A stretch of DNA of 12,469 nucleotides. It comes from Promethearchaeia archaeon. GTDB lineage: Archaea > Asgardarchaeota > Lokiarchaeia > Sigyniarchaeales > SOKP01. Positions 8,451-12,469 of this stretch are shown piece after piece. A program made the translations under genes and the position numbers. The stretch spans positions 1 to 12,469 of the forward strand of contig JAHQWL010000104.1 of assembly GCA_029856155.1 (NCBI GenBank). The letters run 5' to 3'. The first letter of the stretch is position 1; each line of letters opens with the position of its first letter. The notes under the pieces are model-generated. The model saw nothing but the letters and a program-made list of their open reading frames with translations, searched no databases and had not been told where the DNA came from.

Positions 8451-10064
8451 TTATTCGATTTTCTTTAAGTGTCTTAAACCCATTAAGAATATGGGAAGAG
8501 ATATTGCAAGATGTATAGAAATGAACAATATAGAAGGTGTTAAGTCCCAAGTAGTGATTTCAGGAAATTTTTCGCTCAACCAAACCATTAAGAATATAAA
8601 ACCCGTAAGTACCCCCATTTGGATGCTTATAATTTTAAACATATTCAATCCCATGTGTTTTCCTTTTTCTTCGAATGCGGGACTAAATCCTTGTATTCCA
8701 ATTGCTTCAATCAGTACCAGTGTTCCATACGATAAGTAAGCTATGAGAAAAACAACCACGTAAAACGCATCAAATTTAAAAAGGATAGTAGAGAATATTG
8801 TTACAACTACAGCTAATATTGTATTGATAATTAACATCGCTATAATGTAGGAATAAACCAGACTGTTTACATTTCTTGGACTACGTTTATACACCCATAA
8901 CAAGTCTTTACTCCCTACAAAGATGAAATTCCCTAGCATAATCCCATAAAGCAGTCCACCCATGAACAATACCATCATTATTTTAAATCCTCCTGATATG
9001 AAATCATTAGCAGCTCCACTTACAGAAAATGAAAAAATTAATCCATAAACGCAAGTTATACCACCCAAATATACTAATTTTGAGATATTTTCTTTTTTCC
9101 GAAAAAACTGTTTTAATTGGGTGATAACTAACCCCTCCCATTTTGAGCCCATAATGCGTCTATTAAATTTGTAGAATACATTTTCATTTTCTATAGTTGA
9201 TCTAGCCTTCTCAACTCCTCCCTCAAGCGTGTAAAATCTATCCGCTCCTTTATAAGAAAAATATAAGATTATTACAGGTACAAGAATAGCAAGCGTTAAA
9301 CTCGTCCAAATATTTAAGATATAGGTGTTTAATAATGTGGTATCGAAGGTATAGAGGATAATATTAGAGAACCATAGAGCTGGATACCACATAAGATAAT
9401 TCTTCAGTTCTGGATGTTCCATGATGAATTGGAACCCAAACTGTAAAGTGTAGATAAGTGCAACCATTCCAATTGATAGGAGTATTAACAATGCTTTAGC
9501 AATGTCTCGTGCTTTTTCACTCTGAGCAATTTTATGTTCGATCCAACTCATTATTATGGTACCAATTAAGGTTGCCAGAAATACAAGCCCAAATACACAC
9601 CCATAAATTACTAAGGTTTGTACAAACGTCAAGTTAAAAATTGGATTCAACATGTTTACCAAGATAGGTGTAAGAGCAAACACGTAAGAGAAAAGTATGG
9701 GTATCTTTCCTAAGAACTCTCCCAAAAAGATATCCCCTGCTGTGGTTGGGGATGCCAACAGGATTTCTTTAAACCCTATCTCGGTCTGACGATATATATT
9801 ATTTAGAGGATAAATCATAATCATAATAAAAAATATCATCATCAACTGTTCAATAATCATCGCAATGGAGGGGATTAAAACCTGAGAAATCTCCTCCATC
9901 CCCACTAATGTCGGCATAAACAGGTCAAAAATCAAGGGACATAGATAGAACGCCCAAAAAATAAGGAAAGAATATAACACTAAGAAAAATGCTAACCGAT
10001 TCTTGCGAAATTTAGAGGTCCTAACCCTCATTTCATTCTTAGCAATTTTCATCCATCGAGTCAT
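8451..10064 (-). CDS. ABC exporter permease (large ABC-2-like, about 12 or more TM helices in two halves)
   Basis: Highly hydrophobic 537 aa. IAKNEMR at the N-terminus and ILLASPTTAGDIFLGEFLG resemble the ABC-2 permease loop motif, and the second half echoes it (KRSPRNVNSLV). Starts 6 nt after the ATPase stop. Confidence 0.85.
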   Translation of the reverse strand: MTRWMKIAKNEMRVRTSKFRKNRLAFFLVLYSFLIFWAFYLCPLIFDLFMPTLVGMEEISQVLIPSIAMIIEQLMMIFFIMIMIYPLNNIYRQTEIGFKEILLASPTTAGDIFLGEFLGKIPILFSYVFALTPILVNMLNPIFNLTFVQTLVIYGCVFGLVFLATLIGTIIMSWIEHKIAQSEKARDIAKALLILLSIGMVALIYTLQFGFQFIMEHPELKNYLMWYPALWFSNIILYTFDTTLLNTYILNIWTSLTLAILVPVIILYFSYKGADRFYTLEGGVEKARSTIENENVFYKFNRRIMGSKWEGLVITQLKQFFRKKENISKLVYLGGITCVYGLIFSFSVSGAANDFISGGFKIMMVLFMGGLLYGIMLGNFIFVGSKDLLWVYKRSPRNVNSLVYSYIIAMLIINTILAVVVTIFSTILFKFDAFYVVVFLIAYLSYGTLVLIEAIGIQGFSPAFEEKGKHMGLNMFKIISIQMGVLTGFIFLMVWLSEKFPEITTWDLTPSILFISIHLAISLPIFLMGLRHLKKIE

Positions 10065-10070
10065 ATTATA

Positions 10071-10886
10071 TCACTTCCTTTTCTTTTTTGTTTTTTTATT
10101 GAGATTTGCACCATTTGGACCATTTTCACGCCAGGATAATAAATCCTCTATATGAGTTGTTCCCATAATTTTGAGATATGCATCCTCTAAGTCTTTTGCA
10201 TTTTGAGATTCTATAATTTCTTTAGGGCTACCTTGTAATTTCAATTCTCCTTTATCGATAATTCCTATAATATCACAGAGTTCTTCAGCTGCATCAAGCA
10301 GATGAGTACACATAAAAATTGTTTTATCTGCTTTCTTAGCCAAATCAGAAATGAGATCCTTAACCATTCTCGCTGCTGCAGGATCTAAATTTGACGTAGG
10401 CTCATCCAAAAAAATAATCTTGGGATCCTGAATTAATGCTGCACACAAACATACTTTTTGCTTCATACCACGAGAATATCCTTCAAGCAAGTCGTTCTCT
10501 CGTCCCTCAAGATCGAATATATCAAGGAGCTCATCAATACGACTAGATATAGTTGCTTTCGGTAAATAGTACAGCTCGCCAATGAATTCCAAGAACTCTT
10601 TAGCAGTTAATTTTGAATATAATCCGGGTGATTCTGGTAAAAATCCACAGATCATCTTCACATCCTTGGTTTGGGTGAGAATATTATACCCCCCTACTAA
10701 TGCTGTACCATTTGAGGGAGAAATAATACCATTTAACATCCTGACGGTTGTAGTTTTTCCTGCTCCATTTGGCCCTAATAGACCATAGGTAGTACCATAT
10801 GTAATCTCAATATTTAAGTCTTTTACAGCTACAATATCACCAAAAATTTTTGTGAGATCTTTGGTTGCTATTGCCAATTTTTCCAT
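10071..10886 (-). CDS. ABC transporter ATP-binding protein (ABC-2 / drug-resistance exporter type, NatA/CcmA-like)
   Basis: Walker A GPNGAGKTT, signature YSRGMKQK, Walker B IIFLDEP and H-loop CTH. Confidence 0.97.
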   Translation of the reverse strand: MEKLAIATKDLTKIFGDIVAVKDLNIEITYGTTYGLLGPNGAGKTTTVRMLNGIISPSNGTALVGGYNILTQTKDVKMICGFLPESPGLYSKLTAKEFLEFIGELYYLPKATISSRIDELLDIFDLEGRENDLLEGYSRGMKQKVCLCAALIQDPKIIFLDEPTSNLDPAAARMVKDLISDLAKKADKTIFMCTHLLDAAEELCDIIGIIDKGELKLQGSPKEIIESQNAKDLEDAYLKIMGTTHIEDLLSWRENGPNGANLNKKTKKKRK

Positions 10887-10947: not shown

Positions 10948-11376
10948 TTAATTTTCAACTTCTTTCTCGAATAAATCCTCAATCTCTACTCCTAGAGCTT
11001 CAGAAATATTATACAATTCTTTTTCATTAAAAATTTCTAATAACTCCTCTTCATCCAAATTTTTTAATTTAATTATTCGTTTAGTATTTATGCCCGTTTT
11101 TACTGAAATTTTTTCTATTTCATCAAGAGTTTTACCCCCTAATAAATCTTCAATAACAGGTTCTTGATAAAAAATTTTTTCCAATGGTTTCTCAAAAATT
11201 TCGGTAAGTTTAAAGGATAACGTTAAAGAAGGGTTGTAATCCCCTTTCTCTAGGTAATAAATTGTCTGGCGGGAAACACCTACTTTATCAGCTAACTGCT
11301 GCTGAGTTAAGCCTAGCTCTTCTCTATAATCTCTAACATTTGATTTAATTCTTTTTATAAATTTCAGATGCTTCAC
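10948..11376 (-). CDS. XRE/Cro-family (HTH_3, COG1476-like) transcriptional regulator with a second degenerate HTH-like domain; GTG start
   Basis: N-terminal VRDYREELGLTQQQLADKVGVSRQTIYYLEKGDYNPSL; the C-terminal half ends in LYNISEALGVEIEDLF. Confidence 0.93.
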   Translation of the reverse strand: MKHLKFIKRIKSNVRDYREELGLTQQQLADKVGVSRQTIYYLEKGDYNPSLTLSFKLTEIFEKPLEKIFYQEPVIEDLLGGKTLDEIEKISVKTGINTKRIIKLKNLDEEELLEIFNEKELYNISEALGVEIEDLFEKEVEN

Positions 11377-11387
11377 ACCAAAATTAT

Positions 11388-11405
11388 TTTAAACTTGAGT
11401 TTAAA
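11388..11405. promoter_or_regulatory. Palindrome TTTAAACT-TG-AGTTTAAA overlapping a TATA-like element for the XRE gene; operator candidate
   Basis: Perfect 8-bp arms. Minus-strand TTTAAA (11405-11400) is 24-29 nt upstream of the GTG. Confidence 0.5.
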
Positions 11406-11417
11406 CATTAAATAATT

Positions 11418-11428
11418 AAAAAAAAAAA
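11418..11428 (-). terminator. Oligo-T terminator candidate (T11 on the minus strand) after the PH-XRE gene
   Basis: A11 run on the plus strand, 6 nt past the stop at 11435. Confidence 0.55.
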
Positions 11429-11434
11429 GAATTT

Positions 11435-12262
11435 TTATGCTAATTTAAATAGATCCTCAACCTTACACTTTAAAACTTCTGCTATTTTGAAAGCTAATGC
11501 TAAACTTGGATTATATCGGCCTTCTTCTAAATAATTTATAGTTTGAATTGGAACCCCAACTTTTTCAGCCAAAACTGCAGCGCTCATATTAATATTTTCT
11601 CTTTTTTCTTTTATTGTTGTTTTTAAATATTCTCCTTCTCGCATTTTCGAAAGAATGTAGCTAATAAAGTTATCAAAAGCAATTTCTTCAGGTTTAAAGA
11701 TTTTATCTTCTAAACCGCTTGGAATTGTAGAATATTTGGTTAACCTATCTTTTATCTTCTCCTCGATGATATTGGGCTCTAATAATCCTGGAATATAACC
11801 TTCTGGGCGAACAACACCTCCTTTAGCACCTGCTGCTGCCGCTGCAGATCCTGCAGTCTCAACTTTAACGGTATATGTTTTAAACATTCTATCAAAGACT
11901 CCATTGGTTATATTTATGTTTTGAATTCTGCTATGTGGGATAGTCGCTCTCACTCTATTAAAAACTCCATGTTGAATTATGAGATCACTTTCTAATACTT
12001 CAAAGGAGAACATCTTGACATATCGGTAAGAATACCAGATTGTAGACAATAACACAACTATAAATGGGATCACCACTGAATAAAAAAGTATCCATAAAAT
12101 CCAGTTAAATTGGGATATTTCTTCAAAAAAGAACAAAATCCAAAACGTTAAGATCATCCAAGATGCATAAAACAAAAAATAACCAATAATGGTTTTAAAA
12201 ATCTGTTTCTTCGCATAATTACGAGAGATAGTTCCTTTATACATTGGATCACGTTTACTCAT
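11435..12262 (-). CDS. Membrane-anchored bacterial-type PH domain (bPH_2, YdbS-like) fused to a C-terminal XRE helix-turn-helix domain
   Basis: Two TM helices (aa ~24-46 and ~53-78). The bPH_2 pattern LIIQHGVFNRVRATIPHSRIQNINITNGVFDRMFKTYTVKVETAG...IPGL spans aa ~85-172. The XRE domain IKEKRENINMSAAVLAEKVGVPIQTINYLEEGRYNPSLALAFKIAEVLKCKVEDLF spans aa ~217-272. Confidence 0.9.
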   Translation of the reverse strand: MSKRDPMYKGTISRNYAKKQIFKTIIGYFLFYASWMILTFWILFFFEEISQFNWILWILFYSVVIPFIVVLLSTIWYSYRYVKMFSFEVLESDLIIQHGVFNRVRATIPHSRIQNINITNGVFDRMFKTYTVKVETAGSAAAAAGAKGGVVRPEGYIPGLLEPNIIEEKIKDRLTKYSTIPSGLEDKIFKPEEIAFDNFISYILSKMREGEYLKTTIKEKRENINMSAAVLAEKVGVPIQTINYLEEGRYNPSLALAFKIAEVLKCKVEDLFKLA

Positions 12263-12270
12263 TTTATTTA

Positions 12271-12276
12271 TCCTCC
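12271..12276 (-). promoter_or_regulatory. Shine-Dalgarno-like GGAGGA for the PH-XRE gene
   Basis: tcctcc on the plus strand, 8 nt upstream of the ATG at 12262. Confidence 0.6.
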
Positions 12277-12373
12277 ATTTTTATATTATTTTTTAATTTA
12301 TGTAAACTTTAATTATACTAAATTTTTGATATTTTAAATCTTGAAACATAATATTTTGAAAATTAGTTTCATT

Positions 12374-12392
12374 ATGTAATGTTTATTTACAT
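12374..12392. promoter_or_regulatory. Inverted repeat ATGTAA-N7-TTACAT; operator candidate upstream of the PH-XRE gene
   Basis: Perfect 6-bp arms at 12374-12379 and 12387-12392; a degenerate copy ATGTAA-N7-TTATAC lies at 12300-12318. Confidence 0.4.
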
Positions 12393-12469
12393 TCGTATTT
12401 AAATCTATCTATAAAAATTCGAAAATGTAGCATAATAGTATTATTTTTGTAATTGGATGAATGTTAAGT

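What the first reader, a model, noticed from the sequence alone, without database searches (positions are those of the whole stretch)
11441..11626. The membrane-tethered XRE domain looks like a DNA-binding-impaired copy of its neighbour: a possible decoy or anti-repressor
Seen: LAEKVGVPIQTINYLEEGRYNPSLALAFKI versus [30 protein letters not shown] gives 21/30 identities by hand, suggesting local duplication. The tethered copy has SAAV for TQQQ in helix 2 and PIQT for SRQT at the start of the recognition helix. Established: the helix-2 Gln and recognition-helix Ser/Arg are typical DNA contacts in XRE/Cro domains, and the C-terminal helix commonly mediates dimerisation; paralog-mimic antagonism is known for SinR with SinI/SlrR. 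Inference: the tethered domain heterodimerises with and sequesters the soluble repressor at the membrane, or retargets it, under PH-domain control.
Basis: partly seen in the sequence, partly recalled or inferred. Interest (0 to 1): 0.75.

Follow-up and report, generated by a model that had tools for sequence, protein, structure and literature searches.

The report
Membrane-tethered pseudo-repressor domain beside true repressor
In a group of Asgard archaea, a membrane protein carries a repressor-like domain that has lost the usual DNA-reading residues and sits beside a normal soluble repressor and an ABC exporter, so it probably controls that repressor by pairing with it; this pairing has not been shown experimentally.

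Summary
The 275-aa protein (11435-12262, minus strand) is 2TM + bPH_2 + C-terminal XRE domain. That domain matches the neighbouring 142-aa soluble XRE at 21/30 identities in the quoted stretch and 27/60 overall.

The claim of a local duplication is not supported. Both domains are equally or more similar to bacterial CylR2-type proteins (41-52%), and the gene pair is conserved across a whole archaeal order.

The claim of impaired DNA reading is supported by comparison:
- The subfamily's helix-2 Gln and helix-3 Arg occur in 64/71 and 63/71 unrelated small XREs and in 48/48 soluble partners, but in 0/50 tethered domains of this family (Pro plus Ile/Leu/Val instead).
- In 45 paired loci, DNA-contact columns are nearly invariant in the soluble protein (0.20 bits) and the most variable class in the tethered one (1.12 bits).
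- The NPSL-loop and helix 4/5 surface stays conserved.
- Palindromic operators next to the TATA box follow the soluble protein's recognition helix, not the tethered one.
- A heterodimer model passed its controls (0.65 versus 0.01), but it resembles the solved CylR2 dimer.

Binding and sequestration remain unproven. I class this as a new variant of a known kind, of moderate interest.

The parts
11435..12262 (-). Gene for the 275-aa membrane protein: cytoplasmic N-tail, two TM helices, bPH_2 domain, linker, C-terminal XRE domain
   Evidence: ORF. Pfam bPH_2 and HTH_3. More than 444 homologues, and every source name given is Asgard-labelled. AF2 model has mean pLDDT 74.7.
12011..12220 (-). TM hairpin (residues ~15-84) with a very short outside loop (EEISQFN)
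   Evidence: AF2 helices 15-46 and 52-84 with pLDDT 80-93. The positive-inside pattern is read from the sequence.
11729..12010 (-). bPH_2 (YdbS/YdbT-type bacterial PH) domain, residues ~85-178, including a Gly/Ala-rich loop at 139-151
   Evidence: Pfam PF03703, E 2.6e-15. Strands and C-terminal helix appear in the AF2 model. ETAG and RPEGYIPG are invariant.
11642..11680 (-). Linker helix FDNFISYILSKMR (residues 195-207), the most conserved stretch of the protein
   Evidence: 97-100% conserved in 116 orthologues and kept as FDEFIAYFLSKMRE in distant families. AF2 places it with low confidence (pLDDT ~51-55).
11438..11626 (-). Tethered CylR2-like XRE domain (residues 213-275): helix-2 SAAV, recognition helix PIQTINY, NPSL loop, helices 4/5 with conserved Cys266
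   Evidence: TM-score 0.90 to CylR2 and DR_2454.
11418..11428 (-). T11 run directly after the stop codon of the tethered-XRE gene, resembling an archaeal oligo-T terminator
   Evidence: Sequence. A T-rich run (about 5-11 T) is conserved at this place in 24 aligned orthologous loci.
10948..11376 (-). Soluble XRE (sXRE) gene. HTH1 is residues 11-73 (11158-11346). A C-terminal helical domain spans residues 74-142. The conserved start position is the CTG at 11365-11367, behind a GGTGTG Shine-Dalgarno-like site at 11374-11379
   Evidence: AF2 mean pLDDT 92.6. CylR2/DR_2454 fold with 44-52% identity.
10071..10886 (-). ABC ATPase, DrrA/ABC-2 exporter type
   Evidence: Pfam ABC_tran. NCBIfam drrA, E 1e-72, below the family cut-off. 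88-95% identical in relatives of the genus.
8451..10064 (-). 537-aa polytopic permease with no Pfam or NCBIfam match. Atlas look-alikes are 12TM_1 / ABC_tran_2 exporter permeases
   Evidence: 79-86% identical in relatives and always follows the ATPase.
12396..12403 (-). TATA-like box TTTAAATA
   Evidence: Almost invariant in 15 aligned upstream regions of the genus and also present in other genera of the family.
12374..12392 (.). Proximal operator: 19-bp palindrome ATGTAAA-TAAAC-ATTACAT, 3 bp downstream of the TATA box
   Evidence: Symmetric variants (ATGTTAA..TTAACAT) occur in sister genera.
12461..12469 (.). Right half (TTAACAT on the minus strand) of the distal 20-bp operator ATGTAAAG-N4-CTTAACAT, cut by the contig end
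   Evidence: The full palindrome is present at about -215 in 14 orthologous loci.
12297..12319 (-). Conserved block AGTATAATTAAAG-TTTACAT-AAA about 45 nt before the start codon. It holds a single operator half-site and may be a second TATA-like element. The GGAGG Shine-Dalgarno site lies at 12272-12276
   Evidence: The half-site changes to TTAACAT in the genera whose palindromes use TTAACAT.

Best explanation
This is a four-gene module found here in Asgard archaea: tethered XRE, soluble XRE, ABC ATPase, permease.

Inferred: the soluble CylR2-like XRE (sXRE) is the operator-binding repressor. As a symmetric dimer it binds the palindromes that flank or overlap the TATA box of the operon's own promoter.

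Shown by comparison: the membrane protein is a YdbS-like 2TM-bPH sensor with almost no extracellular part. Its C-terminal XRE domain keeps the CylR2 fold and the NPSL-loop/helix-4/5 dimer surface. It has replaced the subfamily's DNA-reading Gln and Ser-Arg with Ala and Pro-Ile, and its contact positions drift.

Inferred: the tethered domain does not read the operator. It pairs with an sXRE monomer through the normal dimer surface. The resulting heterodimer has only one competent recognition helix and is held at the membrane, so sXRE is titrated away from its palindromes, in the manner of a dominant-negative partner. The TM/bPH part would set how available the tethered domain is, perhaps by sensing membrane state or the activity of the neighbouring exporter.

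Inferred evolutionary path: the ancestor was a DNA-binding membrane-tethered one-component regulator. Lineages without the soluble partner next door, and some fragments, still carry canonical SQ...S/T-R-Q-T residues. After the soluble partner took over DNA binding, the tethered copy was reduced to a partner-binding module.
For: 1. Hallmark residues. Helix-2 Gln and helix-3 Arg are present in 64/71 and 63/71 unrelated small XRE cluster representatives and in 48/48 sXREs of the family. They are present in 0/50 tethered domains, which have Pro in 46/50 and Ile/Leu/Val in 47/50.
2. Paired entropy in 45 loci from the same genomes. Contact columns: tethered 1.12 bits versus sXRE 0.20. Predicted interface: 0.62 versus 0.92. 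Remaining columns: 0.77 versus 1.14. Permutation p = 1.5e-4.
3. Operator class follows the sXRE helix. SRQTI/VYY goes only with TGTWAW..WTWACA (22/32 loci). SRQTINY goes only with GTCAA-N4-8-TTGAC (4/4). SRQMISY goes only with GCAAC..GTTGC (2/2). Within the GTCAA class the tethered helices differ: SRTTVQY, SRTTIEY, SVEAIQF.
4. The operators sit 3 bp after a conserved TATA box and show symmetric compensating variants.
5. Genus g5 loci (L028, L075) have no sXRE downstream. Their tethered domain carries SQ...SRQTINY, and the GTCAAG-N4-CTTGAC operators lie upstream of the gene. Fragments P0266 and P0362 carry TRQTI.
6. Complex prediction gave score 0.65 in three runs, against a best control of 0.01. 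That mark was reached by 58 of 80 solved complexes and 2 of 110 mismatched pairs. The runs agree in at least 87% of contacts, and the partner's pLDDT is at least 85. The interface is 251-258/267-274 against 48-59/64-71.
7. The gene pair is adjacent in nearly every carrier across four families of the order.
8. G023 keeps sXRE and the ABC genes without the tethered gene, so sXRE can stand alone as the regulator.
Against: - No binding or DNA-affinity data exist.
- The heterodimer pass may be recalled from the solved CylR2 homodimer.
- The tethered recognition helix is not random. Pro238, a hydrophobic residue at 239, Thr241 and Tyr244 are fixed, which could equally mean a different, specific ligand or DNA site.
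- Gln240 (equivalent to 434 Gln29) is kept in about two thirds of sequences.
- The covariation rests on only three or four independent lineages.
- The direction of regulation (sequestration on signal, or release on signal) is unknown.
Confidence: 0.45

Rival explanations
1. The fusion is an ordinary transmembrane transcription regulator. Its HTH still binds DNA from the membrane, with a changed specificity: Pro-Ile-Gln-Thr reading a different, perhaps AT-rich or methyl-contacting site. In this reading it acts in parallel with the soluble XRE, not through it.
For: [quoted passage not shown] Distant orthologues and g5 carry fully canonical contact residues. Pro238, the hydrophobic residue at 239, Thr241 and Tyr244 are strongly conserved. 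The conserved block at 12297-12319 has a conserved left flank that the sXRE palindrome does not explain.
Against: The family-wide Gln and Arg are lost in 50/50 sequences. Positions 228, 240 and 243 are among the most variable of the domain, whereas the partner's equivalents are invariant. Glu appears at position 240 in 11/50 sequences. The left flank of the conserved block differs between genera that share the same tethered helix. No second palindrome class tracks the tethered helix.
Confidence: 0.25
2. The tethered domain is only a self-association module. It homodimerises or cross-links subunits of a bPH ring as part of sensor assembly or of exporter regulation, and it never touches the soluble XRE, which regulates the operon independently.
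For: The conserved NPSL/helix-4/5 surface is the CylR2 homodimer surface. Bacterial PH domains form oligomeric rings (PMC2817789, abstract seen). bPH_2 proteins work in peptide transport alongside ABC transporter genes in Enterococcus (PMC8657885). sXRE and the ABC genes exist without the fusion in G023.
Against: This does not explain why the soluble XRE gene is almost always the next gene. It also does not explain why loss of the contact residues coincides with the presence of the soluble partner, while g5, which lacks the partner next door, keeps them. The heterodimer model scores well.
Confidence: 0.15
3. Retargeting. The heterodimer does bind DNA, at a lone sXRE half-site, using the tethered domain as a non-specific second subunit. 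This would bring the promoter to the membrane or switch sXRE from the palindromes to the single half-site at about -45.
For: A single conserved half-site (TTTACAT, window 12300-12306) lies in a conserved block near the start codon. It changes to TTAACAT in the genera whose palindromes use TTAACAT. The heterodimer geometry would point both recognition helices at the DNA.
Against: The block may simply be a TATA-like core promoter, or a third site for cooperative sXRE binding. No evidence separates these readings, and RNA data gave no transcript starts.
Confidence: 0.1

Closest known systems
CylR1/CylR2 of Enterococcus faecalis (cytolysin regulator)
   Same: A small CylR2-type XRE repressor is encoded right after a small membrane protein gene. 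Signal passes from the membrane protein to the repressor without phosphorelay (PMC3709268). Both HTH domains here have the CylR2 fold at 41-44% identity.
   Different: CylR1 is a 3-TM protein with no HTH and no PH domain, and its mechanism is still unknown. Here the membrane partner carries its own CylR2-like domain and a bPH_2 domain, the soluble partner has an extra C-terminal domain, and the host is an archaeon.
SinR with SinI / SlrR (Bacillus subtilis)
   Same: A paralogue-derived antagonist neutralises an XRE repressor by forming a heteromer in place of the repressor's own oligomer.
   Different: SinI has no HTH domain and binds through the C-terminal helical hooks. SlrR still binds DNA. 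Neither is membrane-bound. Here the predicted contact is HTH domain to HTH domain, through the NPSL loop and helices 4/5.
Transmembrane transcription regulators such as BcrR, ToxR and CadC
   Same: A DNA-binding-type domain is fused to TM helices, often controlling a neighbouring transporter, and this class is widespread in archaea (PMC10269533). The distant orthologues with canonical contact residues (g5) probably work this way.
   Different: In the window's family the HTH has lost the subfamily's contact residues and is paired with a soluble canonical copy. The HTH is C-terminal, behind a bPH domain.
YdbS/YdbT and DdE/DdF bPH_2 membrane proteins
   Same: The 2TM + bPH_2 architecture matches YdbS. 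DdE and DdF are needed for export of a leaderless bacteriocin and lie upstream of ABC transporter genes (PMC8657885).
   Different: Those proteins have no HTH domain and no described regulatory role.
Id / Emc dominant-negative HLH proteins (eukaryotes)
   Same: The logic is the same: a family member keeps the dimer surface, lacks the DNA-contact residues, and poisons its DNA-binding partners. This comparison rests on my own knowledge.
   Different: The fold is unrelated, the proteins are soluble, and this is an analogy only.

Membership tests
Pfam HTH_3 (XRE / Cro-C1 helix-turn-helix) | Match to the profile above the gathering score | tested here: met
   Residues 217-271 score 51 bits against a cut-off of 23. 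The soluble partner scores 67.9 bits.
Pfam bPH_2 (YdbS/YdbT bacterial PH) | Match to the profile above the gathering score, preceded by a TM hairpin | tested here: met
   Residues 84-141 score 56.9 bits against a cut-off of 22. AF2 shows two long helices followed by a beta sandwich and a C-terminal helix.
CylR2-like small XRE repressors | CylR2 fold: five helices plus terminal strands | tested here: met
   Foldseek target-normalised TM-score is 0.90-0.91 with rmsd 0.9-1.0 A to 1utx, 2xiu and 9k3w for the tethered domain, and 0.86-0.87 for sXRE.
CylR2-like small XRE repressors | Conserved DNA-reading residues: helix-2 Gln and Ser/Thr/Arg-Arg-Gln-Thr at the start of helix 3 | tested here: not met
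   The tethered domain has Ala228 and Pro238-Ile239. In the family, 0/50 carry the Gln or the Arg, against 64/71 and 63/71 in other small XREs. sXRE meets this feature in 48/48.
CylR2-like small XRE repressors | Binds a palindromic operator as a dimer | not testable with these tools
   For sXRE this is inferred from the palindromes and the covariation. For the tethered domain it is unknown.
SinI-type anti-repressor | Lacks the HTH domain and binds the repressor's C-terminal oligomerisation helices | tested here: not met
   The tethered module is a full HTH fold. The predicted contacts involve the HTH cores.
Transmembrane transcription regulator (TTR) | At least one TM region plus a recognised DNA-binding domain in one polypeptide | tested here: met
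   The definition is taken from PMC10269533.
Transmembrane transcription regulator (TTR) | Regulates transcription by binding DNA from the membrane | tested here: inconclusive

The most novel reading that the evidence does not exclude
An archaeal two-protein signalling system without phosphorelay. A membrane sensor carries a dominant-negative copy of the repressor's own DNA-binding domain and switches the repressor off by forming an incompetent, membrane-held heterodimer. The system would have arisen from a one-component membrane-tethered regulator by splitting DNA reading and sensing between two paralogous-type domains. If true, it would also suggest how the long-unexplained CylR1/CylR2-type pairs pass a signal.
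Probability: 0.35. Interest if true: 0.7.

Novelty: new variant of a known kind. Interest (0 to 1): 0.55.

Why it matters
Very little is known about how Asgard archaea sense their envelope and regulate genes. This module is common in one order: it was found in 44 of 68 sampled genomes of the window's family and 6 of 7 of a sister family. It is annotated only as 'PH domain-containing protein'.

If the tethered domain is a dominant-negative partner of the soluble repressor, that would be a simple and testable way to pass a signal from membrane to DNA without phosphorylation or proteolysis. It would also be a clear case of a one-component regulator splitting into sensor and reader. The predicted operators, the contact residues and the interface give concrete reagents for biochemical tests, so the work does not depend on Asgard genetics.

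Tried and rejected
- **Local duplication.** Rejected as an inference from identity, because 45% is the subfamily level. The 62-column HTH tree is poorly resolved (16 of 181 branches starred). An AU test rejects an exclusive tethered+soluble clade (p 0.008). However, the outgroup was picked by likeness to the tethered domain and may include soluble partners from other Asgard lineages, so I use this result only as 'no support'.
- **Genome-wide regulon.** The strict operator pattern occurs at two other places in the 4.1-Mb genome, against one for the reversed control. That is no enrichment. One site overlaps the start of a JAMM/MPN gene and is probably chance.
Only the T-run and the GGTGAG site are conserved. 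The TTTAAAC..TTTAAAA element is limited to the closest relatives.
- **RNA structure between the two promoter-like elements.** RNAalifold found no consensus structure. Single-sequence hairpins range from -2 to -12 kcal/mol.
- **Expression.** Two sediment metatranscriptome runs held short contigs (236 nt at 11580-11815 and 191 nt at 12035-12225, three mismatches each) inside the tethered-XRE gene. These are contigs from RNA libraries, and they show no transcript start, no strand, and no proof of transcription.
- **Failed or blocked steps.** Two DNA-search runs failed on pattern syntax. The CylR2 structure paper (PMC517608) is not held, so the assignment of contact residues rests on alignment to 434 repressor numbering from my own knowledge and on family conservation.

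Full report
**What is there.** The right end of the window holds four co-oriented minus-strand genes:
- a 275-aa protein at 11435-12262;
- a 142-aa protein at 10948-11376;
- an ABC ATPase at 10071-10886;
- a 537-aa polytopic permease at 8451-10064.

Pfam places bPH_2 at residues 84-141 and HTH_3 at 217-271 of the first protein, and HTH_3 at 14-67 of the second. The sequence and the AF2 model (mean pLDDT 74.7) give this layout for the 275-aa protein:
- a Lys/Arg-rich N-tail;
- two long TM helices joined by a seven-residue acidic loop;
- the bPH_2 sandwich with a Gly/Ala-rich loop;
- a linker containing the near-invariant helix FDNFISYILSKMR;
- the C-terminal HTH.

With two TM helices and the positive-inside pattern, the PH and HTH domains lie in the cytoplasm. 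Almost nothing is exposed outside the cell.

The two quoted 30-mers are present and share 21/30 residues. BLASTP over the whole domain gives 27/60 identities, E 4e-16. SAAV replaces TQQQ, and PIQT replaces SRQT, as described.

**Where it occurs.**
- The fusion has more than 444 homologues, and every source name given is Asgard-labelled.
- In genome searches the full-length fusion was found in 44 of 68 sampled genomes of the window's family and 6 of 7 of a sister family.
- It was also found in two further families of the same order.
- Outside the order, the roughly 225 sampled genomes of the phylum gave only HTH-only or PH-only partial matches.
- In nearly every carrier the soluble XRE (sXRE) gene follows within 50-100 bp.
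- Within the genus the ABC ATPase and permease follow as well.
- Conservation within the genus is graded: ATPase 88-95%, permease 79-86%, fusion 66-88%, sXRE 45-75%.

**Is the neighbour a local duplicate?** Identity does not support that.
- The closest solved structures to both domains are Deinococcus DR_2454 (9k3w) and Enterococcus CylR2 (1utx, 2xiu).
- sXRE is 52% and 44% identical to them. The tethered domain is 48% and 41-43% identical, with TM-scores of 0.86-0.91.
- A scan of 1.8 billion cluster representatives found 3151 clusters at E <= 0.001. More than a hundred small XREs were 45-58% identical to the tethered domain.
- A 62-column tree is poorly resolved. An AU test rejects an exclusive clade of tethered plus soluble domains (p 0.008), with the caveats listed under Tried and rejected.
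- Any duplication therefore predates the order. The 45% figure reflects membership of the CylR2-like subfamily.

**Is the tethered domain impaired in DNA reading?** Three comparisons say its contact surface is no longer under the selection that acts on a repressor.

*1. Hallmark residues.*

| Set | Helix-2 Gln | First residue of helix 3 = Arg |
|---|---|---|
| 71 unrelated small XREs | 64/71 | 63/71 |
| sXREs of the window's family | 48/48 | 48/48 |
| Tethered domains of the window's family | 0/50 | 0/50 |

The tethered domains have Pro in 46/50 at the helix N-cap and Ile/Leu/Val in 47/50 at the Arg position. Aligned by hand to 434 repressor (my own knowledge), these positions correspond to Gln17, Thr27 and Gln28.

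*2. Column entropy in 45 loci where both proteins come from the same genome.*

| Columns | Tethered domain (bits) | sXRE (bits) |
|---|---|---|
| Seven DNA-contact columns | 1.12 | 0.20 |
| Predicted interface | 0.62 | 0.92 |
| Rest of the domain | 0.77 | 1.14 |

In sXRE the contact columns are the most conserved class. In the tethered domain they are the least conserved. The tethered domain is nevertheless the better conserved of the two overall. The shift at the contact columns is reached by 0.015% of random column sets. It is not simple decay, however: Pro238, the hydrophobic residue at 239, Thr241 and Tyr244 are fixed.

*3. Ancestral state.* The Pro-Ile state is derived. Distant families carry SQ...SRTTV, SQ...SRQTINY, or Glu/Val at the Arg position. 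Fragments of other fusions carry TRQTI. In genus g5 no sXRE gene follows, and the tethered domain has the fully canonical SQ...SRQTINY.

**Operators.** Aligned upstream regions of 15 loci of the genus show a clear footprint:
- a 20-bp palindrome ATGTAAAG-N4-CTTAACAT at about -215, of which the window holds only the right half at its very end (12461-12469);
- a near-invariant TATA box TTTAAATA (12396-12403);
- three bases later, a 19-bp palindrome ATGTAAATAAACATTACAT (12374-12392);
- a conserved block with a single half-site TTTACAT about 45 nt before the start (12297-12319);
- a GGAGG site (12272-12276).

Sister genera keep the TATA-plus-palindrome layout with symmetric variants (ATGTTAA..TTAACAT). 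Their lone half-site changes in the same way. Distant families have GTCAA-N6-TTGAC or GCAACC-N3-GGTTGC instead.

Operator class follows the sXRE recognition helix without exception in the loci scored:

| sXRE recognition helix | Operator class | Loci with that operator |
|---|---|---|
| SRQTI/VYY | TGTWAW..WTWACA | 22/32 |
| SRQTINY | GTCAA..TTGAC | 4/4 |
| SRQMISY | GCAAC..GTTGC | 2/2 |

Tethered helices vary within a class: SRTTVQY, SRTTIEY and SVEAIQF all go with GTCAA sites. The g5 fusion carries SRQTINY itself and has GTCAAG-N4-CTTGAC sites upstream of its gene.

This is only three or four independent lineages, so I treat it as qualitative. It points to sXRE as the operator reader and to a classic archaeal repression geometry. 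The strict motif is not enriched elsewhere in the genome.

**Can the two domains pair?** One complex job was run with residues 192-275 of the fusion and full-length sXRE, each with its own alignment.
- The score was 0.65 in all three runs, against a best control of 0.01.
- That mark was reached by 58 of 80 solved complexes and 2 of 110 mismatched pairs.
- The runs agree in at least 87% of contacts, and the partner's pLDDT is at least 85.
- The interface is pseudo-symmetric. N251-F258, K267-E269 and F272-L274 of the fusion contact N48-T52, S54-K56, T58-E59, P64-E66, F69 and Q71 of sXRE.
- This is the NPSL loop plus helices 4/5, the most conserved shared motif of both proteins.
- The dimeric arrangement of CylR2, SinR and DdrO HTH domains is known from crystal structures (PMC8960796).

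The pass may therefore be recalled from those solved dimers. It shows that a heterodimer is compatible with the known geometry. It does not show that a heterodimer forms, or that it is preferred over homodimers, and I could not model the homodimers.

**Other context.**
- A T-rich run follows the stop codon of the fusion in all 24 aligned loci, and a GGTGAG site precedes the sXRE start. The two regulators may therefore be expressed at different levels.
- The ATPase is of the DrrA/ABC-2 exporter type. The permease resembles 12TM_1/ABC_tran_2 exporters by language-model features only.
- One relative (G023) keeps sXRE and the ABC genes without the fusion gene. This fits sXRE being the self-sufficient regulator and the fusion being an accessory input.
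- bPH_2 membrane proteins are needed for export of a leaderless bacteriocin and lie upstream of ABC transporter genes in Enterococcus (PMC8657885).
- CylR2 works with the membrane protein CylR1 by an unknown, non-phosphorelay mechanism (PMC3709268).
- Transmembrane transcription regulators are common in archaea (PMC10269533).
- I found no paper describing a bPH-XRE fusion.

**Verdict.** The duplication inference is not supported. The functional idea is the best-supported reading, at about 0.45: the tethered copy no longer reads the operator and acts on the soluble repressor through the shared dimer surface. Three alternatives remain open: a changed DNA specificity, a pure self-association role, and retargeting to the lone half-site. 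I class this as a new variant of known themes (a membrane partner of a CylR2-type repressor, a dominant-negative paralogue, a TTR) and not as a new kind of system. All mechanistic steps beyond sequence comparison are inferred.

Noticed in passing
window 11365-11379: The conserved start position of the soluble XRE gene is ATG, TTG or, in the window and its closest relatives, CTG (11365-11367). It lies 7-8 nt behind a conserved GGTGAG/GGTGTG site. The GTG listed by the ORF finder (11374-11376) is GAG in the relatives, so the protein is probably 139 aa and may start at a CTG.
   Followed up: partly
window 10951-11157: The C-terminal half of the soluble XRE is a confident helical domain (AF2 pLDDT above 90) made of two HTH-like repeats of about 31 aa. 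In genus g13 (L073, L074, L076) it matches the HTH part of the profile at E about 1e-6. The extension is missing from the 64-99-aa partners in most distant families. It appears in the same clade as the Pro-Ile state of the tethered domain.
   Followed up: partly
window ~12320-12365: An imperfect inverted repeat (for example AAATTTCAAAATATTATATTTTGAGATTT in L019) lies between the TATA/operator and the -45 block. Single sequences fold at -2 to -12 kcal/mol, but RNAalifold finds no consensus. It could be a second protein site.
   Followed up: partly
L077, L078, L079; P0249, P0253: These are paralogous 307-325-aa variants of the fusion, each followed by a canonical soluble XRE. In P0249 and P0253 the Gly/Ala-rich loop of the bPH domain is replaced by a hydrophobic insert of about 50 aa, which may be two extra TM helices. 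The locus-encoded variants have recognition helices PIRTIKY, SIKTIQY and PVKLIKH.
   Followed up: no
L024 (G018:C70): Here the order of the module differs. The ABC ATPase and permease come first, followed by two tandem copies of the fusion gene, then the soluble XRE. The second fusion copy is 43% identical and is cut by a TAA before the HTH.
   Followed up: no
L082 (G023:C1:436000-440700): This single-contig relative has the soluble XRE, ATPase and permease (87% identical) but no fusion gene upstream; an unrelated 357-aa ORF sits there. About 100 bases at the start of the XRE gene are masked as N.
   Followed up: partly
L080 (G000:C71:78539-78558): An operator-like palindrome ATGTAAAGTGTTTTTAACAT overlaps the start codon of a JAMM/MPN-type gene (HSHPG motif). 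The reversed control pattern occurs about as often in the genome, so this may be chance.
   Followed up: partly
P0241: An 883-aa protein in the public library matched the tethered HTH query in ten stretches, suggesting a tandem array of CylR2-like HTH domains. Several others have 4-8 matching stretches.
   Followed up: no
window 10071-10886 versus 10948-12262: The ABC ATPase is far better conserved across the genus (88-95%) than either regulator (66-88% and 45-75%). The soluble XRE evolves fastest outside its invariant recognition helix.
   Followed up: no
window residue 266 of the fusion (11465-11467): Cys266 in helix 5 (LKCKVEDLF) is 99% conserved in the window's family. It is absent from the soluble partner (Pro) and from distant families (Val/Ile). 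It lies next to predicted interface residues 267-269.
   Followed up: no
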